Assembly: GCA_026989015.1 (NCBI GenBank) | Contig: JALSKD010000016.1 | Coordinates: 21,710-85,709 of the forward strand | From: Gammaproteobacteria bacterium | GTDB taxonomy: Bacteria > Pseudomonadota > Gammaproteobacteria > GCA-001735895 | Length of the DNA: 64,000 bases | Direction of reading: 5' to 3' | In this document: positions 3,107 to 64,000 of the stretch, piece after piece | How the letters are laid out: every line of letters starts with the position of its first letter | How positions within the stretch are numbered: position 1 is the first letter of the stretch | The notes under the pieces: model-generated | Databases searched by the model: none | What the model saw: only the letters and a program-made list of their open reading frames with translations | What the model was told of the DNA's origin: nothing | Position numbers and translations under genes: made by a program

Positions 3107-4231
3107 ATGAAAACAGCAACGAGATTATTGAGCGCCACCGCCTTGCTGTGGCTGGCGGTGCAACCTCTGCAGGCGGCCGAGCGCTGGTACAGTGAGCAGC
3201 AGGTGAAAAAGGGCGCAGACCTGTTCGCGCAGAACTGCGCCTCCTGTCATGGTGCAAAGGGCGAGGGCACGAAAAACTGGAAAACCCCCGATGACAACGG
3301 CGTCTATCCGCCGCCCCCCATCAACGGCAAGGGCCATGCCTGGCATCATGACCTGGCCCTGCTGCGCGGCACGGTCAAAAACGGCGGCAAGCCGGTGGGC
3401 GGAACCATGCCGGCATTTGGGGACAGGCTGTCGAAGGAAGACATCGATGCGGTCATCGCCTATGTGCAATCACTCTGGCCGGAGGAGATTTACCAGCGCT
3501 GGGCCAGCCGCGGTGAACCCCGCGCCGACGCGCCCGACCAGCCGCAATCGCTGAGCGCCCAGCTGCAACCGGGCAAGCGCGCAGTGACCCGGCTGCTGGA
3601 ACAACGCCTGGGACAGCCGGTGCCACCGGCGGTGGAGACGCCGGTCAAGGGCATCTATCAGACCCGTCTGGGCGCCAATATCGGCTACCTCACCGAGGAC
3701 GGACGCTACATCTTCATGGGCCAACTGGTGGACCTGAAGACCGGCGCCAACCTGACCGAAACCGCCAAGCGCGCGGCGGTGACCGACAAACTGGCCGAGG
3801 TGGCGCAGAAGGACAAGGTGATCTATCCGGCCAGTGGCGAGGAGAAGGCCGTGCTGACCGTATTCACCGACACCACCTGCCCCTATTGCCGCAAGCTGCA
3901 CAAAGAGGTTCCGGAGTTGAACAAGGCCGGCATCAGCGTGCATTATCTGCCGTTTCCCCGTGGCGGTGCCGCCGGGCCCGGATACACTTCGCTGAAACAG
4001 GTATGGTGCGCCCAGGACCGCCGGAAAGCCATGAGCATCGCCAAGCAGCAGATGGCGGGCGACCTGCCCGATCCCGATTGCGCGGCCGCGGCAATGGTGG
4101 ACCGGGGATACCGTCTGGGCAATGAAGTGGGCGTCACCGGCACCCCGGCCCTGTTCAAGTCCAACGGCCAGAAGATCGAGGGCTATGTACCCTATCAGCA
4201 ACTGATTCCGATGGTATTGGGCAATTCATAG
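3107..4231 (+). CDS. Secreted fusion protein: N-terminal monoheme cytochrome c domain + C-terminal DsbC/DsbG-type thiol:disulfide interchange domain
   Basis: Signal peptide. CASCH heme motif near the N-terminus. C-terminal thioredoxin-fold with CPYC (TDTTCPYCRKLH) and DsbC/G-like flanking sequence (…ISVHYLPFP…GTPALF…). Confidence 0.75.
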   Translation: MKTATRLLSATALLWLAVQPLQAAERWYSEQQVKKGADLFAQNCASCHGAKGEGTKNWKTPDDNGVYPPPPINGKGHAWHHDLALLRGTVKNGGKPVGGTMPAFGDRLSKEDIDAVIAYVQSLWPEEIYQRWASRGEPRADAPDQPQSLSAQLQPGKRAVTRLLEQRLGQPVPPAVETPVKGIYQTRLGANIGYLTEDGRYIFMGQLVDLKTGANLTETAKRAAVTDKLAEVAQKDKVIYPASGEEKAVLTVFTDTTCPYCRKLHKEVPELNKAGISVHYLPFPRGGAAGPGYTSLKQVWCAQDRRKAMSIAKQQMAGDLPDPDCAAAAMVDRGYRLGNEVGVTGTPALFKSNGQKIEGYVPYQQLIPMVLGNS

Positions 4232-4298: not shown

Positions 4299-6509
4299 AT
4301 GAGTGAACCCATCCGCCTCTCCATCGCCGGCATGGCCTGTGCCGGCTGCGTCTCCGCCGTCGAGAACGCGCTGAAGGAAGTGCCCGGTGTCGAGGAAGCC
4401 ACGGTCAACCTGGGCGAGCGCACCGCCACGGTGACCGGAACCGCGGATGCCGATGCGTTGATCGCTGCAGTGAAAAAGGCCGGCTACGATGCCGCCGAAT
4501 TGCGCGGCCTGGAAGACGAGCAGGAAAAGGAAAACCTGGAGCTTCAGGAATACCGCAAGCTGTGGTGGCGCGCCCTCGTCGCAGGCGGCATCGGTGCCGC
4601 CATGTTCATCGGCGGCGCGCTGGGCCTGTTCCCGGAGATCGAGGAATCCCCGGGCTTCTGGATGTTCCTGAGTCTGGTGACGCTGGGCGTGCTCACCCTG
4701 GTCGGCGGACATTTTTTCAGGGGAGCACTGGCTTCGCTGCGCGCCGGGCGCGGCAACATGGATACTCTGGTGGCGCTGGGCACCGGCTCCGCCTGGCTCT
4801 ACTCCACCGTGGTGGTGCTGTTTCCCGACAGCCTGCCCAGCCTGGCGCGGCACGCCTATTTCGATGCCGCGGTCATCATCGTCGGCCTGGTATCGCTCGG
4901 CTCCGCGCTGGAAACCAAGGCACGGGGCAAGACCTCCGAAGCCATCAAGCACCTGATCGGCCTGCAACCGGCCACCGCCCGCGTCATCCGCAACGGCGAG
5001 GAGATCGACCTGCCGGTGGAGGAAATCGGCCTCGAGGAAACCATTCGCATCCGTCCCGGCGAACGCATCCCGGTGGACGGCGAAATCTTCGAGGGCGAAT
5101 CCCATGTGGACGAGTCCATGCTTACCGGCGAACCCATGCCGGTCTCCAAGAAAGTGGGTGATGCGGTCTACAGCGGCACCCTGAACACCTCCGGCAGCTT
5201 TCTGATGAAGGCCACCAAGATCGGCAAGGACACCGCGCTCGCCCACATCATCGAGCTGGTGCGCCAGGCCCAGTCCAGCAAGCCGCAAATCGGCCGCCTG
5301 GTGGACAAGGTGGCCGCCATCTTCGTGCCGGTGGTGGTGACCATTGCCGTCATCAGCTTCATCGTCTGGTACCTCTGGGGTCCCGAACCCAGCCTTGCCT
5401 ACGCCATGGTCTCGGCCATGACCGTGCTGGTCATCGCCTGCCCCTGCGCGCTCGGCCTGGCCACCCCCATCTCGATCATGGTCGGCGTCGGCCGTGCCGC
5501 CGAGATGGGTGTACTGATCCGCAATGGCGAAGCCCTGCAAAGCGCCAGCCAGCTCGGCACCATCGTGGTGGACAAGACCGGCACCGTTACCGAAGGCCGC
5601 CCACGGCTGACCACGCTGCTGCCGCAGCCCGGCTTCGACGAGAGCGAAGCCCTGCAGCGCGCCGCCGCGCTGGAAACCGGCTCCGAACACCCGTTGGCCG
5701 CCTCCATACTCGAAGCGGCGCGTGAGCGGGGTATCGAGGCCACGGCGGTCGAAGGGTTCCGGGCCGTCTCCGGCTTCGGCGTCGAGGGCGAACGCGACGG
5801 CCACCGCCTGATCCTCGGCAACGCACGGTTCATGAAGCAGCAGGCCGTTGATCTGGGTGACAGCGAAGCCCGCGCCGAGCAGCTGGCCGCATCCGGCGAA
5901 ACCCCCATCTACCTCGCCGAGGATGGCCGGCTGGTCGCCCTGCTGGGCATCTCCGATCCGCCACGGGAAGACTCGAAACAGGCCATCGAACGCCTGCACC
6001 GCCTGGGACTCACCGTCATCATGCTCACCGGCGACAACGCCCGCACCGCGCGCGCCATCGCCGACCGCGTCGGCATCGACGAAGTCATCGCCGAAGTATT
6101 GCCCGAAGACAAGACCGGCAAGATCACCGAACTGCAGGCCCGCGGCCGCAAGGTGGCGATGGTCGGCGACGGCATCAACGACGCCCCGGCGCTGGCCCAG
6201 GCCAATGTCGGCATCGCCGTCGGCAGCGGCGCCGATGTGGCCATCGAATCCGCCGACATCGCGCTGATGCGCAACTCCCTCAACGGCGTAGCCGACGCCA
6301 TCGCCCTGTCGCGTGCCACCCTGCGCAACATCAAGCAGAACCTGTTCGGCGCCTTCATCTACAATGTGCTCGGCATCCCCGTCGCCGCCGGCGTGCTCTA
6401 CCCCTTCTACGGCATCCTGCTCAGCCCCATCATCGCCGCCGCCGCCATGAGCATGAGCTCGGTCACCGTCGTCACCAACGCCCTGCGCCTGCGCAAGCAG
6501 CGTCTGTGA
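4299..6509 (+). CDS. copA: Copper-translocating P1B-type ATPase
   Basis: N-terminal HMA with GMACAGC; the CPC transmembrane motif; DKTGT phosphorylation site; GDGINDAP. Confidence 0.9.
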
Positions 6510-7530: not shown

Positions 7531-8364
7531 TCAGCGCAGGGAGAAGGTGAGGTTGGCCCAGTGGCTCTGCCACTCGGCGTTCGGGTCCAGGCTGTCGCTG
7601 GAGTAGGGGAGGATCTTGACCGCCTTGAGCATCCAGTCACCGGCGCGGTCGAGGGTGATGCTCACCCGGCCTTCGGCATCCGTCCGCGCCTGCTGTTTTT
7701 CCTCCGGTGCGCCGCGAGTGAAGGCGATCAGCAGCAGGTCCTCGGCCGGCTTTCCCCGGTAGAGCAGCCGCACCGTCAGACGGTCACCGGGCTTGAGGCG
7801 GCAGGGGTTGACTTCGGGGACGATCTCCAGGGTCTGGCCGACGGCCAGGGTGGAGGCATCCAGGGTGAAGGCATCACCGGCCTGCACCAGGGCCTTGCTG
7901 TGGCGCTGGTAGCGCTCCAGCCCGCGCCGGTTTTCCTCTCCGCGTTCGCGACGCAGCGCGAGGGCATTGTCCAACCCTTCCATGATCAGGTACTTGCGGA
8001 AGGTTTGCGGGTCGATATCGACGAAGCTGAAGGTGCTCTGGTAGGTGACCAGCCAGGTGCCGGGGCGGTCGGGGATGAAACGGCCGGCCGGGTCGTCGCC
8101 CAGCGCGCCGGGCATGGGGCGTGATTCGCCGGGCAGGTGCAGCGAGAAGTCTTCGTACCAGTTGCGGATGTTGGGCAGGCTGTCGCCGACGAAGTCGGCG
8201 CCCACATGGATCGAAACATCGACAGGCTGTCCCACCGGCGTATAAAATGGATGCGCCTCGAGCCAGAAGTCGTGGGCCTGTGCCGTTGCGGCCCATGCGA
8301 TGGCGACCAGCCCCCATCTTGCCACACCCGTTATTCCCCGGAAAATCCCATGCGCCCTGTTCAT
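7531..8364 (-). CDS. DUF4198 family periplasmic protein (nickel/cobalt-uptake-associated family)
   Basis: Signal peptide, then ...AHDFWLEAHPFYTPVGQPVDVSIHVGADF.... The ATG at 8364 would overlap the divergent gene start; an in-frame GTG at ~8325 is an alternative start. The upper part of the long minus ORF (to 9384) is antisense noise. Confidence 0.55.
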   Translation of the reverse strand: MNRAHGIFRGITGVARWGLVAIAWAATAQAHDFWLEAHPFYTPVGQPVDVSIHVGADFVGDSLPNIRNWYEDFSLHLPGESRPMPGALGDDPAGRFIPDRPGTWLVTYQSTFSFVDIDPQTFRKYLIMEGLDNALALRRERGEENRRGLERYQRHSKALVQAGDAFTLDASTLAVGQTLEIVPEVNPCRLKPGDRLTVRLLYRGKPAEDLLLIAFTRGAPEEKQQARTDAEGRVSITLDRAGDWMLKAVKILPYSSDSLDPNAEWQSHWANLTFSLR

Positions 8365-9498
8365 CTGTTCGTTGTATTCCTCTGTCTTGTCGGCCTTGCC
8401 GGACCGTTGGCGGCGCATCAGCTGCGGCCTGCGCTGGCGACAGTATCCTTTGAGCCCGGCGGAACGGTCAAGCTGCGCATCCAGACCAATGCGGAGGCCC
8501 TGCTGGCCGGCATCGACCCGAAGCACCGCAATACCAACGATTCCCCAAGAGCCGGCGAGTACAACCATCTGCGCGGGCTGCCGCCCGAGGCCATCGCGCA
8601 GGCCTTTGCCGGGTTCGCCGAGCGCTATGCGGAGGGGCTGCGGCTGGAGGCGGACAGCGGTGATGGGCAATGGCGGCTGCTGGAATGGCGCTATCGGGGC
8701 ATCGAAGTGCCGCCGGTGGGCGATACCCGGTTGTCGCGCAAGTCGCTGATCCGTTATCAGGGGATTCTGCCGGAGGGTGCGGCCCGCGTGCGCTGGTCCT
8801 ATGCCGCCGACTATGGGGATTCGGTCATCAGCTTCACCCAGCCGGGCCAGCAAGAGCCGGTCAGCTACTGGCTCACCGGCGGGGAACCCAGCCCGGAATA
8901 TGCGCTCGACCGGGTCGTGCAACCCCGTGCCTGGACCGCGGTGGCGGCCGATTATCTGCAGCTGGGTTTCGTCCACATCCTGCCCCGTGGGCTGGATCAC
9001 ATCCTGTTTGTGCTGGGGCTGTTCCTGCTGTCGCGCCGACTCAAGCCGCTGCTGTGGCAGGTGACGGCCTTCACCGTCGCCCACAGCATCACCCTGGCGC
9101 TGTCCATTTACGGCTATATCGACCTGCCATCGACCGTGGTCGAGCCGGCGATCGCCCTGTCCATTGCCTATGTCGGGATCGAAAACATCCTCACCCGCCA
9201 GCTCCACGCCTGGCGGGTGGTCATCGTGTTCCTGTTCGGCCTGTTGCACGGCATGGGCTTTGCCGGGGTGCTGACCGAGCTGGGCCTGCCGGAAAACGAA
9301 TTCGTCACCGCGCTGGTTTCCTTCAACATCGGTGTCGAATTCGGCCAGCTTGCGGTCATCAGCCTGGCCTGGCTCGCGGTGCACCGCATCATGCGTGACG
9401 AGGCGCGCTATCGCCGCTGGGTGGTGGTTCCCGGTTCCCTCGGAATTGCCGTCATGGGCCTGTACTGGACCGTCGAGCGGCTGGGCTGGCTGGGGTGA
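8350..9498 (+). CDS. HupE/UreJ_2-family metal (Ni/Co-type) transporter with large N-terminal periplasmic domain
   Basis: Signal peptide MRPVHLFVVFLCLVGLAGPLAA; C-terminal TM domain with the signature ...FVHILPRGLDHILFVLGLFLL... and ...GLLHGMGFAG.... Confidence 0.6.
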   Translation: MRPVHLFVVFLCLVGLAGPLAAHQLRPALATVSFEPGGTVKLRIQTNAEALLAGIDPKHRNTNDSPRAGEYNHLRGLPPEAIAQAFAGFAERYAEGLRLEADSGDGQWRLLEWRYRGIEVPPVGDTRLSRKSLIRYQGILPEGAARVRWSYAADYGDSVISFTQPGQQEPVSYWLTGGEPSPEYALDRVVQPRAWTAVAADYLQLGFVHILPRGLDHILFVLGLFLLSRRLKPLLWQVTAFTVAHSITLALSIYGYIDLPSTVVEPAIALSIAYVGIENILTRQLHAWRVVIVFLFGLLHGMGFAGVLTELGLPENEFVTALVSFNIGVEFGQLAVISLAWLAVHRIMRDEARYRRWVVVPGSLGIAVMGLYWTVERLGWLG

Positions 9499-11055: not shown

Positions 11056-12519
11056 ATGAGCAAGAACACCCTTCTGACCACCGCCACCGGATCGCCGGTG
11101 CCCGACGACGACACCAGCATCAGCGCAGGCCCGCGCGGCCCGCTGACTTGGGACAACCACTATACCTTCGAGAAGCTGGCGCATTTCAACCGCGAGCGCA
11201 TCCCCGAGCGGGTGGTGCACGCGCGCGGCACCGGCGCTTACGGCACCTTCACCCTGACCCGCTCGATGAGCGAATGGACCATTGCCGATTTCTTGCAGCG
11301 CGAAGGCGAGCAGACCGAGGCATTCGTGCGGTTTTCCACGGTCGGCGGCGGCCAGGATTCCAGCGACTATGCACGGGATCCGCGCGGCTTTGCGGTCAAG
11401 TTCTACACCGCCGAGGGCAATTACGACATGGTGGGCAACAACACGCCGGTGTTCTTTTTGCGCGATGCCATCAAGTTCCCGGATTTCATCCATTCGCAGA
11501 AGAAGAACCCGCGCAGCAATTTGCCCGATCCGGCGGCGATGTACGAATTCTGGGCCAACCACCCGCAATCGCTGCACCAGGTGACGATCCTGATGTCCGA
11601 TCGGGGCATACCGGCCAGTTATCGGCACATGCACGGCTTCAGTTCGCACACCTTCAGTTTCTGGAATGCCGAGGGCGAGCGTTTCTGGTTCAAATGGCAT
11701 TTCAAGACCGACCAGGGCATCCGCAACCTGAGTCCCGAGGAAGCGGCGGCGATGCCGCCCTTCGGCGCGCAACAGGATCTGGTCGAGGCCATCGACCGGG
11801 GCGATTTCCCCAGCTGGACGGCCAAGGTGCAGATCATGACCGAGGCACAGGCGCGGGACTATCACATCAATCCCTTCGATCTGACCAAGATCTGGCCGCA
11901 CGGCGATTTCCCGCTGATCGAGGTGGGGCGGCTGGAGCTGAACCGCAATGTGGAGAACTATTTCGCCGAGACCGAGCAGGCCTGTTTCGCGCCGAGCAAC
12001 CTGGTACCGGGCATCGGTGCTTCGCCGGACAAGATGCTGCAAGGCCGCCTGCTGGCCTATCAGGACGCGCACCGCTACCGCGTCGGCGTCAATGCCAACC
12101 AGCTGCCGGTGAACGCTGCCCGTTGCCCGGTGCACCACTACCAGCGCGACGGCGCGATGGCCGGCTGCCCGGTGGCCGGCGGCAACAACCAGGGCAGCGG
12201 GGTGAATTTCTATCCCAATGACGGAATCAATGCCGGCGCGCCGGTGCCCGAGCCGCGGGTGGCCGAGCCACCGATGCCGCTGGAGGAGGAGGCCTGGGTG
12301 AACCGCTATCCGGTCGGCGCGGACGAGGACCACTACAGCCAGGCCGGTGACCTGTTCCGGTGGATGGACGATGCGCAGCGCGAAGGGCTGGCTCGCGCCA
12401 TCGCCGAAGGACTGTCACAGGCCAGTCCTTCGGTGCAGGAGCGGATGCTGGAGCAGTTTGCGCGGGCCGATGCCGAGTATGCGGCACGGGTCGAGGCGGC
12501 GCTCAAGGCGCGGGCCTGA
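11056..12519 (+). CDS. katA: Monofunctional heme catalase (small-subunit clade)
   Basis: ...RERIPERVVHARGTGAYGTF... with the distal His/Asn catalase motifs. ~487 aa. Confidence 0.9.
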   Translation: MSKNTLLTTATGSPVPDDDTSISAGPRGPLTWDNHYTFEKLAHFNRERIPERVVHARGTGAYGTFTLTRSMSEWTIADFLQREGEQTEAFVRFSTVGGGQDSSDYARDPRGFAVKFYTAEGNYDMVGNNTPVFFLRDAIKFPDFIHSQKKNPRSNLPDPAAMYEFWANHPQSLHQVTILMSDRGIPASYRHMHGFSSHTFSFWNAEGERFWFKWHFKTDQGIRNLSPEEAAAMPPFGAQQDLVEAIDRGDFPSWTAKVQIMTEAQARDYHINPFDLTKIWPHGDFPLIEVGRLELNRNVENYFAETEQACFAPSNLVPGIGASPDKMLQGRLLAYQDAHRYRVGVNANQLPVNAARCPVHHYQRDGAMAGCPVAGGNNQGSGVNFYPNDGINAGAPVPEPRVAEPPMPLEEEAWVNRYPVGADEDHYSQAGDLFRWMDDAQREGLARAIAEGLSQASPSVQERMLEQFARADAEYAARVEAALKARA

Positions 12520-12539: not shown

Positions 12540-12566
12540 GGGCGGCCCATCGGGTCGCCCTTTTCT
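12540..12566 (+). terminator. Probable intrinsic terminator (possibly bidirectional) between the convergent catalase and DUF2063 genes
   Basis: GGGCGGCCC-atc-GGGTCGCCC followed by TTTTCTG. Confidence 0.4.
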
Positions 12567-12577
12567 GTGCCCGTGCT

Positions 12578-13351
12578 TCAGCGAGTGATGCGCGTGATCA
12601 GGCCGTCGTGCAGCCATTGCTTGAGGTAGCCGGCGGCGGCGAGGGCCGCGCTGTCCTCGCCGTGCCATTCCAGCAGGCCTTCGCACAGCTCGGCAAAGGC
12701 CGCGCCGCCGTGGGCGGCTTCCACCGCCCAGGCCTCGGCCGGTTCCAGCGAACGCCAGTGCAGTTGTTCGTCCTGCCGCCACAGCAGCCAGCGTACCGGA
12801 TAGCTGCCGCGTTCCGCCGGTGGTGGGGGCTGTTCGTCCTGCAGCGCCTGGGCAATGGCCACGCTGTTCCACCAGGGGTCGATCCAGCGCAGCGAGGGGT
12901 CGAAGACGAAGCGCAGGGACGGCCAGTCCTCGGGCGGGATGGGGGCCATGTCGTCGAGTCCGGCCCGGCCATCGGCTTCGGGGGCATCGAAGCACAGCCC
13001 CAGCGACCATTCGAAATCGGCCAGCTCGGCCTCGAGTTCGCTGCCGCGCCGGCGCAGGAAGGCGGGCAGGTCCTGTCCGACCCAGCGGATGGAGCGGTGG
13101 CGCGACGGGTGGGCGGCGATGTAGTCGAGGATCAGCGCCTCGAAGGCCGGCTCGCCCAGGTGGCGCTGGAGCAGTGGAAAGTCCTCGCCCAGCGATTCGA
13201 TCAGCCGCAGGCGGTAGGCATTCCAGTAGGCGGCCAGCCGGTGCTCGGCGCGGGCCTGCTCGCTGTCCACCACATGCCGCAGGATGGCTTCATCGTCCTG
13301 CTGCAGGTAGGCCTTGAAGGCGAGCTGGAGCCGGCGCAGGCGGTCGTTCAT
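12578..13351 (-). CDS. DUF2063-family protein (BufC/MbnC-like partner of DUF692 enzymes)
   Basis: Starts [16 protein letters not shown].... Its ATG overlaps the stop of the upstream DUF692 gene (ATGA). The longer ORF-track start (13714) runs antisense into the DUF692 gene and is rejected. Confidence 0.7.
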
Positions 13352-14181
13352 GATGCGTCGCGGTAGTAAGGGGCGGCAATGCGCCGGGCCTGATCCAGTT
13401 CTTCCAGCAGTTCGCTCAGCGGAGGGATGTTGGCGTCGCGCTCGATCATCGTCGATACCGGTCCGAGCAGGGCGGCGGTCTGTTCGTAGAGCGCCCAGAC
13501 GCCGTCGACGATGGGTTCGTCGTGGGTGTCGATGATCAGGTTGCCCTGGTTCTGGTGTCCGGCGAGGTGGTGTTGCCAGACCCGTTCGGCGGGTACGCCG
13601 CGGATGTAGTCCAGCGGATCGAAGCCGTGATTGAAGGCACTGACGAAGATGTTGTTCACATCCAGCAGGATGTGGCAGTCGGCGGCCTCGACGATGGCGG
13701 TCAGGAATTCCCACTCGGTCATTTCGTCGTCACGCCAGGTGATGTAGCTGGAGAGGTTCTCGATCAGCATCGGCCGGCCGATGAAGTCCTGCACCTCGGC
13801 GATGCGATCCGCCACATGGCGCACCGTGTCTTCGGTATAGGGCAGGGGCAGCAGGTCGTGCAGGTTCTGGTGATCGACGCCGGTCCAGCACAGGTGATCG
13901 GAGAACCAGGCCGGTTCGATGCGGTCGGCCAGCGCCTTGAGCCGCTGCAGGTAGTCGCGGTCCAGTGGGTCGGTGCTGCCCAGCGACAGGGATACGCCGT
14001 GCATGACCATCGGGTAGTCGGCACGGATGCGGTCGAGATAGCGCAGCGGCTTGCCACCCTCGACCATGAAATTTTCGGAAATGATCTCGAACCAGTCGAT
14101 GCCCTCGGGCTTGAGTTCGAGGATGTCTTCGTAGTGATCGGGCCGCAGGCCCAGGCCGAAGCCAAGAAAGGGTGTGTCCAT
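13348..14181 (-). CDS. DUF692-family (MbnB/TglH-like, TIM-barrel non-heme iron) peptide-modifying enzyme
   Basis: [20 protein letters not shown]... is a typical DUF692 N-terminus. ATG at 14181; the ORF-track start at 14217 is TTG. Confidence 0.8.
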
Positions 14182-14198
14182 GAGGAATGACGAGTTGA

Positions 14199-14229
14199 CG
14201 AAAACAGACACCGCCAAGGGGCGGTGCCT
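14199..14229 (-). terminator. Candidate partial terminator/attenuator hairpin between precursor gene and modifying enzyme
   Basis: On the minus strand: GGCACCGCC-ctt-GGCGGTGTC, followed by TGTTTTCG. This lies between the DUF2282 gene stop and the DUF692 gene start. Confidence 0.3.
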
Positions 14230-14250
14230 GTTCCGTTCGGGACGAGGTCT

Positions 14251-14517
14251 TTACTTCTTCATCATTTCGAACTTGCCGCCCTTCTCGTCACATTCGGCCT
14301 TGGTGGCCTTGACCCAGCCCTGACCCTTGCAGGCGTTCTGGCCGGCACAGGCGTTGGTGGCGGTGGCGCAGGCGGTCTGGCCCTTGCAGCTGTTGATGCC
14401 GAAGCATTTGCCGGCCTTGTGGGCGGCGGCATTGGCGTTCATCGGGGCCACGGCGAACATCAGGGCGGCGGTGGCGGCCAGAGTGGCGCCGGTGACTTTC
14501 TTTGCAGTGTGATCCAT
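14251..14517 (-). CDS. DUF2282-family secreted Cys-rich small protein (bufferin BufA-like RiPP precursor candidate)
   Basis: Sec signal peptide ...AAPMNANA, then the mature region KCFGINSCKGQTACATATNACAGQNACKGQGWVKATKAECDEKGG. It is the first gene upstream of DUF692 + DUF2063 on the same strand. Confidence 0.75.
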   Translation of the reverse strand: MDHTAKKVTGATLAATAALMFAVAPMNANAAAHKAGKCFGINSCKGQTACATATNACAGQNACKGQGWVKATKAECDEKGGKFEMMKK

Positions 14518-14592
14518 GAGTCGTTCCTCTGTTGGATGATGATTGACAAGTGTGTGTGCGGGGCAGGCACTGCTCGGCTTGCCCTGTACGCC

Positions 14593-14650
14593 GAATTAGA
14601 ACACAGCCTTCCGGGCCGGTTCGCACGGAATTCTAACAAAAACCTAACAT
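14593..14650 (-). promoter_or_regulatory. Candidate regulator-binding direct repeats in the promoter region of the DUF2282 gene
   Basis: GAATTAGAACA (14593-14603), GAATTCTAACA (14628-14638) and CCTAACA (~14643-14649) in a 165-bp AT-richer intergenic region. Confidence 0.2.
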
Positions 14651-14682
14651 TTGATTCAGTACGGTTATTATCGGTCGATGGG

Positions 14683-15198
14683 TCACGGGCGGTATTTGCG
14701 CAACACCATCAAATCGCCCCGCTGCAGCAGGTCCATCTGTTTGATCACATTCATGCCGAGCAGGGCCTGATCGTCATCCAGACCCGGGTTGAGGCTGGCT
14801 TTGATATCGCGGAACTCGATGTCGCCGAGTTTCAGCGAATCGATGGTGGTCAGATAGGCGTCCGCGGTGCCGTTGGCGGTGGAGACCCGAAAACGCGGCC
14901 CGATCGGCAGGCCCAGCGGCTTCGCCCAGGACAGCGGCAGGCTGGTGGTGGTGGCCCCGGTATCGACCAGGAAGGTGACCGTCTTGCCGTTGATCTGCCC
15001 GTTGAGCAGGTAATGTCCCTGGCGGTTGCGGCGCAGCACGATTTCCTCGTAGGCGTCGGTGCGGCGGGTTTCCAGCTCGCGGTTGGGGTTGTACTCGCCG
15101 TCCAGGTAGCGCTGGAACACCAGTGCCAGCACGATGAAAAAGATGATCCACCCGCCCCAGATGAACGCGGTGCCGAGTTGTTTGGTAGAATGCGCCAT
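14683..15198 (-). CDS. Retropepsin-like (clan AA, TIGR02281-type) membrane-anchored aspartic protease
   Basis: N-terminal TM helix, then the FLVDTGATTTSL active-site motif. Confidence 0.6.
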   Translation of the reverse strand: MAHSTKQLGTAFIWGGWIIFFIVLALVFQRYLDGEYNPNRELETRRTDAYEEIVLRRNRQGHYLLNGQINGKTVTFLVDTGATTTSLPLSWAKPLGLPIGPRFRVSTANGTADAYLTTIDSLKLGDIEFRDIKASLNPGLDDDQALLGMNVIKQMDLLQRGDLMVLRKYRP

Positions 15199-62374: not shown

Positions 62375-63058
62375 TCAGTCGTCTTTTTGAGCGTCCGGCT
62401 TACCGCCGAGCCGTGCCTTCAGGGATTCCAGCTCGCTTTCCACGGCGTCCTCGGTTTCCAGTTCGGCAAACTCGTCTTCCAGAGACTTGCTTCGGCCCAG
62501 GTCATAGGCATCGACGCGGCCTTCCATCTGGTCCAGCTTTTCCTCCATGCCCTCGAAGCGGCCCAGGGCGTCGGCGATGCGCTCGTCATGCAGTTTCTCG
62601 CGGGTGCGCAGGCGTCCGGACAAAGCGTCCTGTTTGAGCTTCATCGCTTTCTGGCGTGATTTGGCTTCGTCCAGCTTGTGTTGCAACTGGGCGATGTCCT
62701 CGTTCAGCTTGCCCAGGTGCTCGTCCAGATCCTTGAGGTCGAGCTGCAGCTGCTCATGTTGGCGTTGCAGTCGCTGTTTTTCACCCAGCGCGGCACGCGC
62801 CAGATCCTCACGGTCACAGGTCAGGGCGAGTTCCGCCTTGCGTTGCCATTCGTCGATTTCACGCTCCAGCCGCTGCAGATGGCGGCGCAGCTTCTTGCGT
62901 TCGGCAATGCCGCGGGCGGCATCGGAACGCACTTCGATGAGCGTATCCTCCATTTCCTGGATGACCAGGCGAATGATCTTTTGCGGATCCTCCGCCTTGT
63001 CGAGCAAGGCAGTGATGTTGGAATTGATGATGTCATTGAGTCGGCTGAAGATGCTCAT
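62375..63058 (-). CDS. pspA: Phage shock protein A
   Basis: MSIFSRLNDIINSNITALLDKAEDPQKIIRLVIQEMEDTLIEVRS...; AAGGAGA RBS. Confidence 0.85.
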   Translation of the reverse strand: MSIFSRLNDIINSNITALLDKAEDPQKIIRLVIQEMEDTLIEVRSDAARGIAERKKLRRHLQRLEREIDEWQRKAELALTCDREDLARAALGEKQRLQRQHEQLQLDLKDLDEHLGKLNEDIAQLQHKLDEAKSRQKAMKLKQDALSGRLRTREKLHDERIADALGRFEGMEEKLDQMEGRVDAYDLGRSKSLEDEFAELETEDAVESELESLKARLGGKPDAQKDD

Positions 63059-63086
63059 TTTCATGTCTCCTTGTTGCAGGTTGAGT

Positions 63087-63437
63087 TCAGATCAGTGTTG
63101 CATGCCGCGGTCCGGGAACAGGGACTGCTCTGGCCGGAACGGTGATGCGCTGCGCCCGGTGTACGCCACCCAGCGATTGCGGCCGGGGCAGGGCGACCGG
63201 GGGACGGCCTTCTTCCTCGGCCAGGCGGTGGCGGGCTTCGGGTACAGGCAGCCGGCGGAATTCGGCGGTCATGTCCCGTTGGAGCCGGTCTGCCAGCCGC
63301 TGCTGCAGTTGCTTGCGGACCTGCGGCTGATAATCGGGCAGTGAGCCGGCAGGACCGGCTTCGGCAGCCTGCGCCGGCAGGGTGGCCAGCAGCAGACCGA
63401 TCAGCAGAACGGGGCGGATCAATGCGTTCGTGTTCAT
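63087..63437 (-). CDS. Secreted hypothetical protein, apparent first gene of the psp operon
   Basis: Signal peptide MNTNALIRPVLLIGLLLATLPAQA. It lies between the candidate sigma54 promoter and pspA. No homology support. Confidence 0.35.
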   Translation of the reverse strand: MNTNALIRPVLLIGLLLATLPAQAAEAGPAGSLPDYQPQVRKQLQQRLADRLQRDMTAEFRRLPVPEARHRLAEEEGRPPVALPRPQSLGGVHRAQRITVPARAVPVPGPRHATLI

Positions 63438-63476
63438 GGTGTTTTCCTGTTGTGTGGTGTTGGCTTGCCCATCCTT

Positions 63477-63494
63477 CTACAGGAAGCGTGCCAA
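63477..63494 (-). promoter_or_regulatory. Candidate sigma54 (-24/-12) promoter of the psp operon
   Basis: On the minus strand the motif reads TTGGCACGCTTCCTGTAG. Compare E. coli pspA TGGCACGCAAATTGTAT. It is divergent from pspF, and an AT-rich (IHF/UAS-like) region follows. Confidence 0.4.
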
Positions 63495-63554
63495 AAGCCG
63501 GAAATTTCGTTTATGTCATTGATAATAAAAAGGAAATATAGAATAGCGTCCTGC

Positions 63555-63582
63555 TCGACACGGAGGAAAAAATGGCTATAAT
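63555..63582 (+). promoter_or_regulatory. Candidate sigma70 promoter of pspF
   Basis: TCGACA - 16 nt - TATAAT, 38 nt upstream of the pspF ATG. Confidence 0.4.
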
Positions 63583-63619
63583 GGATAATTAAAGGACAAT
63601 TAAGCAAATAAATAGCCAA

Positions 63620-64000
63620 ATGAGCCAAAAAGTTCCTGCCGGTTTGATCGGTGAAGCCCCCGCCTTCCTGTCCATGCTGGAGCAGCTCTCTTCGGTCGCG
63701 CCGCTGGACAAGCCGGTGCTGGTCATTGGCGAGCGCGGCACCGGCAAGGAATTGTGTGCTGACCGCCTGCATTTTCTTTCACGGCGCTGGGATCGCGACC
63801 TGGTCAAGCTCAATTGCGCGGCGTTGCCGGAGACGCTGCTCGAATCCGAATTGTTCGGGCACGAGGCCGGTGCCTTTACCGGTGCGGCGGGGCGGCGTGC
63901 GGGGCTGTTCGAGCAGGCCGACGGGGGCACGCTGTTTCTCGATGAGATCGCCGGCATGTCGCTGCGCCTGCAGGAGAAACTGTTGCGGGTCATCGAATAC
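63620..64000 (+). CDS. pspF: Sigma54-dependent transcriptional activator PspF (5' part; continues beyond window)
   Basis: No N-terminal receiver domain; AAA+ motifs GERGTGKEL and ESELFGHEAGAFTGA. Confidence 0.85.
   Translation, partial: MSQKVPAGLIGEAPAFLSMLEQLSSVAPLDKPVLVIGERGTGKELCADRLHFLSRRWDRDLVKLNCAALPETLLESELFGHEAGAFTGAAGRRAGLFEQADGGTLFLDEIAGMSLRLQEKLLRVIEY

What the first reader, a model, noticed from the sequence alone, without database searches (positions are those of the whole stretch)
12578..14682. Bufferin/methanobactin-like copper-binding RiPP cluster: DUF2282 precursor - DUF692 (MbnB-like) - DUF2063, without a DoxX gene
Three co-directional minus-strand genes.

- A DUF2282 precursor: 88 aa, Sec signal peptide, mature region with 7 Cys in repeated C..CKGQ/CAGQ context.
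- A DUF692 TIM-barrel enzyme, whose N-terminus reads [14 protein letters not shown].
- A DUF2063 protein. Its ATG overlaps the DUF692 stop (ATGA).

This is the architecture of bufferin-type clusters. In those, MbnB/MbnC homologues convert Cys of a secreted DUF2282 peptide into thiooxazole-type copper ligands.

The usual fourth gene (DoxX/BufD) is absent. A catalase gene ends 58 bp downstream on the other strand. The cluster lies about 8 kb from copA and an unusual cytochrome/Dsb operon, inside a stress-gene block.

The product and regulation here are unknown. There is no ECF sigma/anti-sigma or CueR site nearby. Direct repeats sit upstream of the precursor gene (see separate finding).
Basis: partly seen in the sequence, partly recalled or inferred. 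Interest (0 to 1): 0.85.

Follow-up and report, generated by a model that had tools for sequence, protein, structure and literature searches.

The report
Ordinary bufferin-2 copper-peptide gene cluster
This is an intact three-gene cluster for a "bufferin 2", a secreted cysteine-rich peptide that an iron enzyme is expected to turn into a copper-binding molecule; it belongs to a family described in 2024-2025, and its missing fourth gene is normal for that family.

Summary
The three co-directional minus-strand genes exist as described: an 88-aa precursor (14517..14251), an MNIO/DUF692 enzyme (14181..13348, 277 aa) and a DUF2063 partner (13351..12578, ATGA overlap). A catalase gene ends 58 bp away on the other strand.

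The precursor is not a DUF2282/BufA1 protein. It has six Cys, not seven. It gives no PF10048 hit in the current Pfam, and it passes the curated NCBIfam BufA2 model (84 bits, cut-off 60). The enzyme passes the BufB equivalog model (386 bits, cut-off 310). The partner's model resembles NGO1945 (3DEE) and TglI.

This is therefore a Buf2-type (BUF_6/12Cys) bufferin cluster. The characterised Caulobacter buf2ABC operon also lacks DoxX, and published surveys find no sigma/anti-sigma genes in Buf2 clusters. In my own set, 54 of 56 BufA2-B-C loci lack DoxX.

New local details:
- an ECF (sigma-E/AlgU-like) promoter, GAAC-N18-TCTAA, conserved in 13 related loci;
- a conserved terminator hairpin between the precursor and enzyme genes;
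- clade-specific linkage to a retropepsin-like protease gene.

Verdict: a new member of a known kind. The general reading is right, the subfamily is wrong, and the "anomalies" are normal. Low interest.

The parts
14251..14517 (-). bufA2: 88-aa bufferin-2 precursor. Predicted Sec signal peptide is residues 1-30 (nt 14517..14428) and the 58-aa core is residues 31-88. Six Cys: C38, C44, C50, C57, C63, C76.
   Evidence: ORF. NCBIfam NF050166 Cu_RiPP_BufA2 scores 84.2 bits against a cut-off of 60. No PF10048 hit. Cys count. All six Cys are invariant in 40 homologues. A GAGGA ribosome-binding site sits 7 nt before the ATG.
14199..14231 (-). Terminator/attenuator-like hairpin (12-bp stem, CCTT loop, then TTTTCG) between bufA2 and bufB.
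   Evidence: RNA fold gives -31.4 kcal/mol, z = -3.2. An equivalent GC stem plus T-tract sits at the same place in 13 relatives, with compensatory outer-stem changes.
13348..14181 (-). bufB: 277-aa MNIO (DUF692) maturase.
   Evidence: PF05114 at E=1e-114. NCBIfam NF050167 MNIO_BufB scores 385.7 bits against a cut-off of 310. Closest solved structure is 3BWW at E=5.5e-55. The H61/D95-H96/E141/D174/N177/H205/H209/D218/H220/E247 motif residues are conserved. The ATG start agrees with the 279-aa gene calls in relatives.
12578..13351 (-). bufC: 257-aa partner protein (DUF2063 N-terminal domain plus RRE-like C-terminal domain), translationally coupled to bufB by an ATGA overlap.
   Evidence: PF09836 at E=4e-20. 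Sub-threshold full-length hit to NCBIfam HvfC (32 bits, cut-off 142). AlphaFold2 model has pLDDT 95. Foldseek top hits are 3DEE (NGO1945, E=1.7e-6) and TglI (8HI7_A). The C-terminal part gives weak matches to lasso-peptide B1/PqqD RREs.
14596..14622 (-). Putative ECF (sigma-E/AlgU-like) promoter: GAACC-N17-TCTAA.
   Evidence: It is the only GAAC-N17-20-TCTAA match in the 64 kb. GAACTT-N16/17-TCTAA occurs once per locus, always upstream of bufA2, in 8 related MAGs and nowhere else in 82 loci. The GAAC-N18-TCTAA geometry is invariant in 4 nearer relatives. Assignment to a sigma factor is inference.
14518..14595 (-). 5' untranslated leader. Positions about 14596..14545 are nearly invariant among the nearest relatives.
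   Evidence: Alignment A3. No significant RNA fold (z = -0.17). No Rfam match. Role unknown.
14633..14649 (-). Direct repeat TGTTAG-N5-TGTTAG just upstream of the -35 element.
   Evidence: Exact match. The second copy and its flanks (TTTTGTTAGAWTT) are conserved in the 4 nearest relatives, but only GTTA of the first copy is. It is absent as such from the 8 more distant relatives. It could be an UP-like element or activator site, or a remnant of the ancestral -35.
12540..12566 (+). GC-rich hairpin plus T-tract in the 58-bp convergent gap. It is an intrinsic terminator for the catalase gene and the only structure at the end of the buf operon.
   Evidence: On the + strand the fold is -29.3 kcal/mol, z = -2.9, followed by UUUUCU. 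On the - strand it is weak (z = -0.7) with no U-tract.

Best explanation
The locus is a complete Buf2-type bufferin biosynthetic operon, bufA2-bufB2-bufC2, in an uncultured gammaproteobacterium.

Shown here:
- The three proteins meet the family definitions.
- The residues that align with the MNIO iron ligands are intact.
- The partner protein's model resembles known MNIO partners.

Inferred by homology to Caulobacter Buf2 and other MNIO-PME1 systems:
- In the cytoplasm, BufC binds the precursor through its RRE-like domain and presents it to the iron-dependent oxidase BufB.
- BufB carries out four-electron oxidations that convert the four central cysteines (C44, C50, C57, C63) into 5-thiooxazoles.
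- The Sec system then exports the peptide and signal peptidase cuts after A-N-A30.
- C38 and C76 form a disulfide.
- The resulting 58-residue periplasmic peptide sequesters excess copper. Its predicted monoisotopic mass is 5947.6 Da, against 5965.8 Da unmodified.

Inferred from sequence conservation:
- Transcription starts at an ECF-type promoter (GAAC-N18-TCTAA) recognised by a sigma factor encoded elsewhere.
- A hairpin/T-tract after bufA2 lets only part of the transcripts continue into bufBC, so precursor outnumbers enzyme.

DoxX is neither present nor needed.
For: Family membership:
- BufA2 and BufB equivalog models are passed above the curated cut-offs.
- PF05114 and PF09836 are hit.
- Six Cys, an N-terminal hydrophobic signal region and an AXA-type site are conserved across 40 homologues.
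- All MNIO ligand-motif positions are conserved.
- The BufC model (pLDDT 95) matches 3DEE and TglI and has RRE-like C-terminal similarity.

Architecture:
- The A-B-C order recurs in 56 of 80 BufA2 loci.
- DoxX is next to only 3 of 80.

Literature:
- The C. vibrioides buf2 cluster has three genes and lacks bufD. It is copper-induced. Its product has four central Cys each shifted by -4 Da, and the outer two Cys are unmodified (PMC11626156).
- DoxX is dispensable for Buf1 (same paper).
- Sigma/anti-sigma genes are absent from Buf2 clusters (PMC12452194).
- The modification is 5-thiooxazole (PMC13097082; 10.64898/2025.12.15.693703).

Regulatory elements:
- Promoter conservation.
- Hairpin conservation.
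Against: - Nothing here shows expression, modification or copper binding. All chemistry is by homology.
- The signal peptide was judged by rule, not by a predictor.
- The AlphaFold2 model of the precursor is poor (pLDDT 60), so the C38-C76 disulfide is not supported structurally.
- BufC reaches only 32 bits on the nearest NCBIfam partner model (HvfC, cut-off 142).
- At the site proposed to read the substrate Lys, BufB has Ala250. Asp is found there in 43 of 62 BufA2-linked MNIOs (PMC13097082), so site selectivity could differ.
- The promoter in the window (CGAACC) is weaker than the GAACTT of more distant relatives, and no sigma factor gene is available to link to it.
- The neighbours (catalase, sigma-E-like promoter) fit an oxidative or envelope-stress role as well as a copper-specific one.
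Confidence: 0.85

Rival explanations
1. It is a Buf1/DUF2282-type (gig-like) cluster that has lost its DoxX gene.
For: The overall gene order resembles bufA1B1C1. A precomputed table lists a 'weak' PF10048 hit for the precursor. BufA1 and BufA2 are reported to have similar predicted folds (PMC11626156).
Against: The current Pfam gives no PF10048 hit even at E<=10. The precursor has six conserved Cys rather than four. It passes the BufA2 equivalog cut-off. All 545+ relatives found with the BufA2 profile form one family, and 54 of 56 A-B-C loci also lack DoxX. There has therefore been no loss event.
Confidence: 0.03
2. It is a methanobactin-like or oxazolin/EGKCG-type (HvfABC, fontiphorin) system rather than a bufferin. 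That would mean a secreted chalkophore for copper acquisition, or a repeat-type captophorin.
For: BufB is homologous to MbnB (E about 5e-9 to solved MbnB chains) and scores 291 bits on the HvfB model. Its closest solved structure, 3BWW, is from an Hvf-type locus.
Against: The MbnB model scores 67 bits against a cut-off of 325, and the HvfB model 291 against 360, so both fail, while BufB passes. The partner is DUF2063/PME1, not MbnC. The precursor has a Sec signal peptide and no EGKCG repeats. No exporter or TonB-receptor genes are adjacent.
Confidence: 0.03
3. The cluster makes the same kind of modified peptide, but its physiological role in this clade is general envelope or oxidative-stress protection rather than copper buffering. 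It would be driven by a sigma-E/AlgU-type regulon, possibly acting with the adjacent membrane-anchored retropepsin-like protease and the catalase.
For: The conserved GAAC(TT)-N-TCTAA promoter has sigma-E/AlgU-like geometry. The SigF/RpoE7-type GTAAC-N16-CGAA promoters of Buf1-like clusters look different (PMC6180224). The protease gene lies immediately upstream and co-directional in all 13 clade members. Catalase is convergent in the nearest relatives. The related H. influenzae cluster is induced by HOCl through RpoE2 (PMC7907618).
Against: The protease is absent from the other 48 A-B-C loci. It is separated from bufA2 by about 130-190 bp that hold the promoter (165 bp in the window). Its linkage could therefore be plain inherited synteny with aroC. 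Catalase is not linked in the 8 more distant clade members. Assigning a promoter to a particular ECF sigma from sequence alone is unreliable. Copper induction and protection were shown for the homologous Caulobacter Buf2 (PMC11626156).
Confidence: 0.12
4. The cluster is a silent or decaying remnant with no product.
For: The -35 element is degenerate in the window compared with more distant relatives. No clear Shine-Dalgarno precedes bufB. The selectivity site is Ala instead of Asp.
Against: All three ORFs are intact. Catalytic motif residues are invariant. The precursor Cys are all present. The promoter, leader and hairpin are under evident conservation among relatives. GC3 of the genes is typical of coding sequence.
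Confidence: 0.04

Closest known systems
Caulobacter vibrioides buf2 cluster (bufA2B2C2, CCNA_03001-02999), producing bufferin 2 (Leprevost et al. 2024, PMC11626156)
   Same: - Same three-gene order, with no DoxX and no adjacent sigma/anti-sigma genes.
- Sec-signal precursor with six Cys.
- MNIO enzyme plus DUF2063/RRE partner.
- The window proteins pass the NCBIfam BufA2 and BufB equivalog models.
- Both are apparently transcribed from an ECF-type promoter whose sigma factor is encoded elsewhere.
   Different: - Different class: uncultured Gammaproteobacteria versus Alphaproteobacteria.
- The core is 58 rather than 61 residues, and the CysI-CysVI spacing is 38 rather than 26 residues.
- The promoter motif is sigma-E/AlgU-like (GAAC-N18-TCTAA). 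The published SigF/RpoE7-type promoters of Buf1-like clusters read GTAAC-N16-CGAA (PMC6180224).
- BufB has Ala, not Asp, after the ERD motif.
- I could not obtain the Caulobacter sequences for a direct alignment.
Buf1 / DUF2282 bufferin (gig-like) clusters, bufA1B1C1D1
   Same: Homologous MNIO and DUF2063 partner. Signal-peptide precursor whose central Cys become 5-thiooxazoles. Role in copper stress.
   Different: The Buf1 precursor has four conserved Cys and hits PF10048. These clusters usually carry DoxX and often SigF/NrsF genes (PMC12452194). None of these features holds here.
Oxazolin / fontiphorin / gonophorin (HvfABC-type 'captophorins' with EGKCG repeats; PMC11252979, PMC13097082)
   Same: Same MNIO-PME1 enzyme pair and the same 5-thiooxazole chemistry. 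The closest solved structures (3BWW, 3DEE) come from this group.
   Different: The precursor here has no EGKCG repeats. The HvfB and HvfC models score below their cut-offs.
Methanobactin MbnABC
   Same: Distantly homologous MNIO enzyme. Cys-derived heterocycle/sulfur copper ligands.
   Different: - The partner is MbnC, not DUF2063.
- The precursor is a short leader-core peptide without a Sec signal.
- The product is exported and taken up again for copper acquisition.
- The chemistry is oxazolone-thioamide.
- The MbnB model scores 67 bits against a cut-off of 325.

Membership tests
Buf2 (BufA2 / BUF_6/12Cys) bufferin cluster | Precursor matches the BufA2 family profile | tested here: met
   NCBIfam NF050166 (equivalog) scores 84.2 bits against a cut-off of 60, covering residues 10-83. 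UniRef names homologues 'BufA2 family periplasmic bufferin-type metallophore'.
Buf2 (BufA2 / BUF_6/12Cys) bufferin cluster | Six (or twelve) conserved Cys in the core peptide | tested here: met
   Six Cys at positions 38, 44, 50, 57, 63 and 76. All are invariant in a 40-sequence alignment.
Buf2 (BufA2 / BUF_6/12Cys) bufferin cluster | Sec-type signal peptide on the precursor | tested here: met
   By inspection only: K6, K7, then the hydrophobic stretch 10-25, then A-N-A at 28-30. The pattern is conserved in homologues. No signal-peptide predictor was available.
Buf2 (BufA2 / BUF_6/12Cys) bufferin cluster | Adjacent MNIO enzyme of the BufB type with intact iron-ligand motifs | tested here: met
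   NF050167 scores 385.7 bits against a cut-off of 310. PF05114 at E=1e-114. The H/DH/E/DxxN/H/DxH/E positions are conserved and align with MbnB and 3BWW. Which of these residues bind iron is taken from the literature.
Buf2 (BufA2 / BUF_6/12Cys) bufferin cluster | Adjacent PME1 partner (DUF2063 N-terminal domain plus RRE-like C-terminal domain) | tested here: met
   PF09836 at E=4e-20. The model (pLDDT 95) matches 3DEE at E=1.7e-6 and TglI. RRE hits are weak: lasso B1 at probability 0.98, and PqqD. There is no curated BufC model; the HvfC model gives 32 bits, below its cut-off.
Buf2 (BufA2 / BUF_6/12Cys) bufferin cluster | Four central Cys converted to 5-thiooxazoles, outer Cys disulfide, copper binding | not testable with these tools
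   Needs MS/NMR and metal-binding assays. Predicted mass shift is -18.14 Da on the 5965.786 Da core.
Buf2 (BufA2 / BUF_6/12Cys) bufferin cluster | Induction by copper and protection from copper stress | not testable with these tools
   Only a conserved ECF-type promoter could be identified.
Buf1 (DUF2282 / BufA1) bufferin cluster | Precursor hits Pfam PF10048 and has four conserved Cys | tested here: not met
   No PF10048 hit at E<=10. The precursor has six Cys.
Buf1 (DUF2282 / BufA1) bufferin cluster | DoxX (bufD) gene, and often SigF/NrsF genes, in the cluster | tested here: not met
   The flanking genes are a catalase and an aspartic protease. No DoxX or ECF sigma was found in the 64 kb by tblastn.
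Methanobactin (MbnABC) | MbnB-type enzyme with MbnC partner and a short leader-core precursor | tested here: not met
   TIGR04159 scores 67.3 bits against a cut-off of 325. The partner is DUF2063. The precursor has a signal peptide.
Oxazolin / EGKCG captophorins (HvfABC) | HvfB-type enzyme and an EGKCG-repeat precursor | tested here: not met
   NF003818 scores 291 bits against a cut-off of 360, and HvfC scores 32 against 142. The precursor has no EGKCG repeat.

The most novel reading that the evidence does not exclude
In this gammaproteobacterial clade the Buf2 operon may have been wired into a sigma-E/AlgU-type envelope-stress regulon rather than a copper-specific SigF-type one. The evidence is a conserved GAAC(TT)-N-TCTAA promoter and an almost invariant 5' leader. 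The operon may also work with the membrane-anchored retropepsin-like protease that is always encoded immediately upstream, for example in processing the bufferin or in controlling its sigma factor. That would make bufferin 2 a general periplasmic stress effector with an accessory protease not described for any MNIO cluster.
Probability: 0.12. Interest if true: 0.4.

Novelty: new member of a known kind. Interest (0 to 1): 0.15.

Why it matters
This finding changes little. It adds one more unannotated Buf2-type bufferin cluster from an uncultured gammaproteobacterium to a family with thousands of members.

Its use is mainly corrective. Clusters like this should be labelled BufA2/BufB/BufC, and the lack of DoxX or of a neighbouring sigma factor should not be read as an anomaly.

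Two details could help people who study bufferin regulation. One is the ECF-type promoter shared by 13 related loci. The other is the terminator hairpin between precursor and enzyme genes, which is seen widely across the family. Regulation has been studied experimentally only in Caulobacter.

Tried and rejected
- **Pfam DUF2282 for the precursor:** no hit even at E<=10. The only hit was sub-threshold, to DUF7640.
- **Sequence search of BufC against PDB chains:** nothing useful. The relation to 3DEE appeared only after structure prediction and Foldseek.
- **AlphaFold2 model of the precursor:** too poor (pLDDT 60) to test the disulfide or to use in a fold search.
- **Caulobacter BufA2 sequence for direct alignment:** no supplementary files are held.
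- **The TGTTAG direct repeat as a response-regulator site:** no second copy of the motif in the window, no two-component genes seen nearby, and only partial conservation. Left unexplained.
- **The repeat finder on the upstream region:** found nothing.
- **A structured leader or riboswitch:** no Rfam match and no significant fold.
- **The simple promoter/terminator scan:** missed both the ECF-type promoter and the hairpins.
- **Protease and catalase as cluster components:** the protease is linked only within the clade, and the catalase only in the nearest relatives.
- **Looser ECF motif search in the window:** no more matches than chance.
- **Exact-sequence cluster look-up:** gave no names or accessions.
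Full report
**Observation.**

The minus strand of 12578..14517 carries three co-directional ORFs.
- The first (14517..14251) encodes 88 aa. A GAGGA ribosome-binding site precedes it.
- The second is best read from the ATG at 14181 (277 aa, [14 protein letters not shown]...). The longer 289-aa TTG call used by a public annotation starts inside the loop of a hairpin. Relatives are called at the equivalent ATG.
- The third (13351..12578, 257 aa) starts with an ATG that overlaps the preceding TGA as ATGA.
- A catalase gene (Pfam E=4e-175) ends at 12519 on the other strand, 58 bp from the end of the third gene.

The peptide has six cysteines, not seven (C38, 44, 50, 57, 63, 76). The enzyme is 277 aa, not 278.

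**What the proteins are.**

*Enzyme.* It hits Pfam PF05114 (MbnB_TglH_ChrH, formerly DUF692) at E=1e-114. It passes the NCBIfam equivalog model MNIO_BufB (385.7 bits, cut-off 310). It fails the HvfB (291 against 360), ApyH, MbnB (67 against 325) and ChrH models. Its closest solved relative is the Histophilus somni DUF692 protein 3BWW. The H61, D95-H96, E141, D174, N177, H205/H209, D218, H220 and E247 motif positions align with those of MbnB. They are invariant in 62-64 BufA2-linked homologues. That these positions are the iron ligands is established knowledge of the MNIO family, not something I tested.

*Partner.* The third protein hits PF09836/DUF2063 over residues 8-99. It gives a full-length but sub-threshold match to the HvfC partner model. 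Sequence search against the PDB found nothing. An AlphaFold2 model built on 42 homologues (pLDDT 95) matches NGO1945 (3DEE) at E=1.7e-6 and TglI of the TglHI complex. Its C-terminal part gives weak matches to RiPP recognition elements, namely lasso-peptide B1 proteins and PqqD. This is the PME1/BufC architecture described in PMC11626156 and PMC13097082.

*Precursor.* The 88-aa protein gives no hit to Pfam PF10048 (DUF2282/BufA1) even at E<=10. A precomputed table lists only a 'weak' hit. It does pass the curated NCBIfam equivalog Cu_RiPP_BufA2 (84.2 bits, cut-off 60). Homologues are named BufA2 family bufferin-type metallophores, and all six Cys are invariant in 40 of them. The N-terminus has two lysines, a 16-residue hydrophobic stretch and A-N-A at 28-30. 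That is a standard Sec signal with cleavage after A30, judged by rule and not by a predictor.

**Comparison with what is known.**

- Leprevost et al. (PMC11626156) described two bufferin families in Caulobacter vibrioides. Buf1 has a DUF2282 precursor with four Cys and the operon bufABCD, which includes DoxX.
- Buf2 has a 'BUF_6/12Cys' precursor with six Cys. Its operon CCNA_02999-03001 encodes BufA2, BufB2 and BufC2 and "lacks a bufD1-like gene".
- Buf2 is copper-induced. Its product carries -4.03 Da shifts on the four central Cys, and the first and last Cys are unmodified and probably disulfide-bonded.
- DoxX was dispensable even for Buf1.
- The follow-up survey (PMC12452194) states that sigma and anti-sigma genes occur in Buf1 but not in Buf2 clusters. 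It also reports that 90% of Buf2 precursors have six Cys.
- The modification is now firmly assigned as 5-thiooxazole (PMC13097082; 10.64898/2025.12.15.693703).

The window cluster matches Buf2 in every feature I could test.

**My own check of that norm.**

A scan of one genome per GTDB species with a BufA2 profile found more than 545 relatives. Of the 80 loci kept, 56 have the order A-B-C. Clustering all ORFs within 2.5 kb of those loci found no family shared beyond close relatives. Screening for small multi-pass membrane ORFs, followed by Pfam, found DoxX next to a BufA2 homologue in only three loci: L038 and L061 (both Pfam-verified) and L043 (tblastn only). NrsF appeared in one locus. tblastn with the two verified DoxX proteins finds nothing in the 64-kb window. 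tblastn with an ECF sigma from one of the loci finds nothing either; this is a single-query test and therefore weak.

**Source and relatives.**

- The nearest relatives have precursors 82-91% identical to the window's. They keep the same block: aroC, a TIGR02281 membrane-anchored clan-AA aspartic protease, bufA2B2C2, then a convergent catalase and a cupin. One of them has a Card1 nuclease gene inserted between bufC and the catalase.
- Eight more distant uncultured gammaproteobacterial MAGs have precursors 64-78% identical and BufC about 50% identical. They keep aroC-protease-bufABC but not the catalase.
- Outside this clade neither neighbour is linked.

I therefore treat both as clade synteny, not cluster components.

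**Regulatory anatomy (new here, inferred from conservation).**

*Promoter.* Aligning the protease-bufA2 spacers of the eight MAGs shows a conserved T-rich stretch followed by TGAACTT-N17-TCTAA in otherwise diverged sequence. The pattern GAACTT-N15-18-TCTAA occurs exactly once in each of those eight loci, always at this place, and in none of the other 74 loci. The window and its four nearest relatives have G(C/A)GAAC-N18-TCTAA with identical spacing. It is the only such match in the window (14622..14596). From my knowledge of the consensus sequences, this geometry is that of sigma-E/AlgU-type ECF promoters (GGAACTT-N16-TCAAA/TCTGA). It differs from the GTAAC-N16-CGAA motifs in front of a Buf1-like cluster controlled by RpoE7 in Sinorhizobium (PMC6180224). 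Which sigma factor uses it is unknown.

*Leader.* The roughly 50 nt after the -10 element are almost invariant among the nearest relatives. They have no significant fold and no Rfam match.

Only its second copy is well conserved, and only in the nearest relatives.

*Hairpin.* Between bufA2 and bufB lies a 12-bp GC-rich hairpin followed by TTTT (14231..14199; -31 kcal/mol, z=-3.2). A hairpin plus T-tract sits at the same place in all clade members, with compensatory changes in the outer stem. Many other BufA2 loci also have strongly folding A-B spacers. The simplest reading is partial termination, which keeps precursor mRNA in excess over enzyme mRNA. That is an inference.

*Operon end.* The 58-bp gap at the end of the operon holds a hairpin that is a good terminator only for the catalase strand.

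**Mechanism proposed.**

- *Shown:* family membership of the three proteins, intact catalytic motifs, the fold of the partner, and the conserved promoter-like and terminator-like elements.
- *Inferred by homology:* BufC recruits the precursor to BufB in the cytoplasm. BufB oxidises C44, C50, C57 and C63 to 5-thiooxazoles. Sec exports the peptide and signal peptidase cuts after A30. C38 and C76 form a disulfide. The 58-residue product buffers periplasmic copper. The predicted monoisotopic mass falls from 5965.786 to 5947.645 Da.

**Caveats.**

- The precursor model is poor (pLDDT 60). It does place C38 in a strand, C76 in a helix and the central Cys in coil, which fits the published description.
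- BufB has Ala250 at the site after the ERD motif. Most BufA2-linked enzymes have Asp there (43 of 62; Ala in 10; Gly in the 8 clade MAGs). Gadgil et al. proposed that this Asp contacts the substrate Lys (PMC13097082).
- The inducing signal could be envelope or oxidative stress rather than copper.

**Verdict.**

The subfamily assignment is wrong, and the features flagged as unusual are typical. This is a new, unannotated member of a well-described and very large family, with curated HMMs already available. Interest is low (0.15). The only mildly novel possibility is sigma-E-type control together with a functional link to the upstream protease. I rate it about 12% likely, and of moderate interest if true.

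Noticed in passing
window 14683-15198 (-); L003-L009, L016, L083-L088: A 171-aa membrane-anchored clan-AA (retropepsin-like) aspartic protease of the TIGR02281 family lies immediately upstream of bufA2 and co-directional with it. It is divergent from aroC. This holds in all 13 clade members and in none of the other 48 A-B-C loci. No function is known.
   Followed up: partly
L087 3388-4527: In one near relative, a Card1-type CARF nuclease gene (a type III CRISPR ancillary effector family) is inserted between bufC and the catalase gene.
   Followed up: no
window 13432-13434 (BufB residue 250): The residue after the ERD motif is Ala here and Gly in the 8 clade MAGs. It is Asp in 43 of 62 BufA2-linked MNIOs. 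A published proposal has this Asp reading the Lys of Cys-Lys substrates, although the precursor here keeps its two Cys-Lys motifs.
   Followed up: partly
L003, L005, L006, L008, L009 (bufA2-bufB spacers): A conserved GATACAAT follows the bufA2 terminator in the more distant clade members. It could be an internal -10 element giving bufBC its own promoter. The window and its nearest relatives do not have it.
   Followed up: no
window 14217 (TTG) versus 14181 (ATG): The public gene call of BufB as 289 aa starts at a TTG inside the loop of the terminator hairpin. The ATG 36 nt downstream matches the family models and the calls in relatives.
   Followed up: yes
window 3107-4231 (+): A single 374-aa protein combines an N-terminal cytochrome c domain with DsbC_N and thioredoxin-like domains. 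It lies directly upstream of the CopA P-type ATPase (4299-6509) and downstream of a DedA/VTT protein and a small cytochrome c.
   Followed up: partly
L022, L043, L051, L052, L057 and others; L013, L049, L017, L028 and others: About 20 of the 80 BufA2 homologues have no MNIO gene detectable in the locus. Several of these sit on short contigs, so this is an upper bound. Several other loci carry two or three tandem precursor copies. Both patterns are already noted in PMC12452194.
   Followed up: no
window 62375-64000: The ORFs at the right end look like a phage-shock operon (PspA-like 229 aa, two small membrane proteins) with a divergent PspF-like activator. This is judged from sequence only and was not tested.
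   Followed up: no
window 7531-9384 (-): This 617-aa ORF is probably over-extended. Only residues 368-589 match a family (DUF4198), so the real gene is likely about 250 aa.
   Followed up: partly
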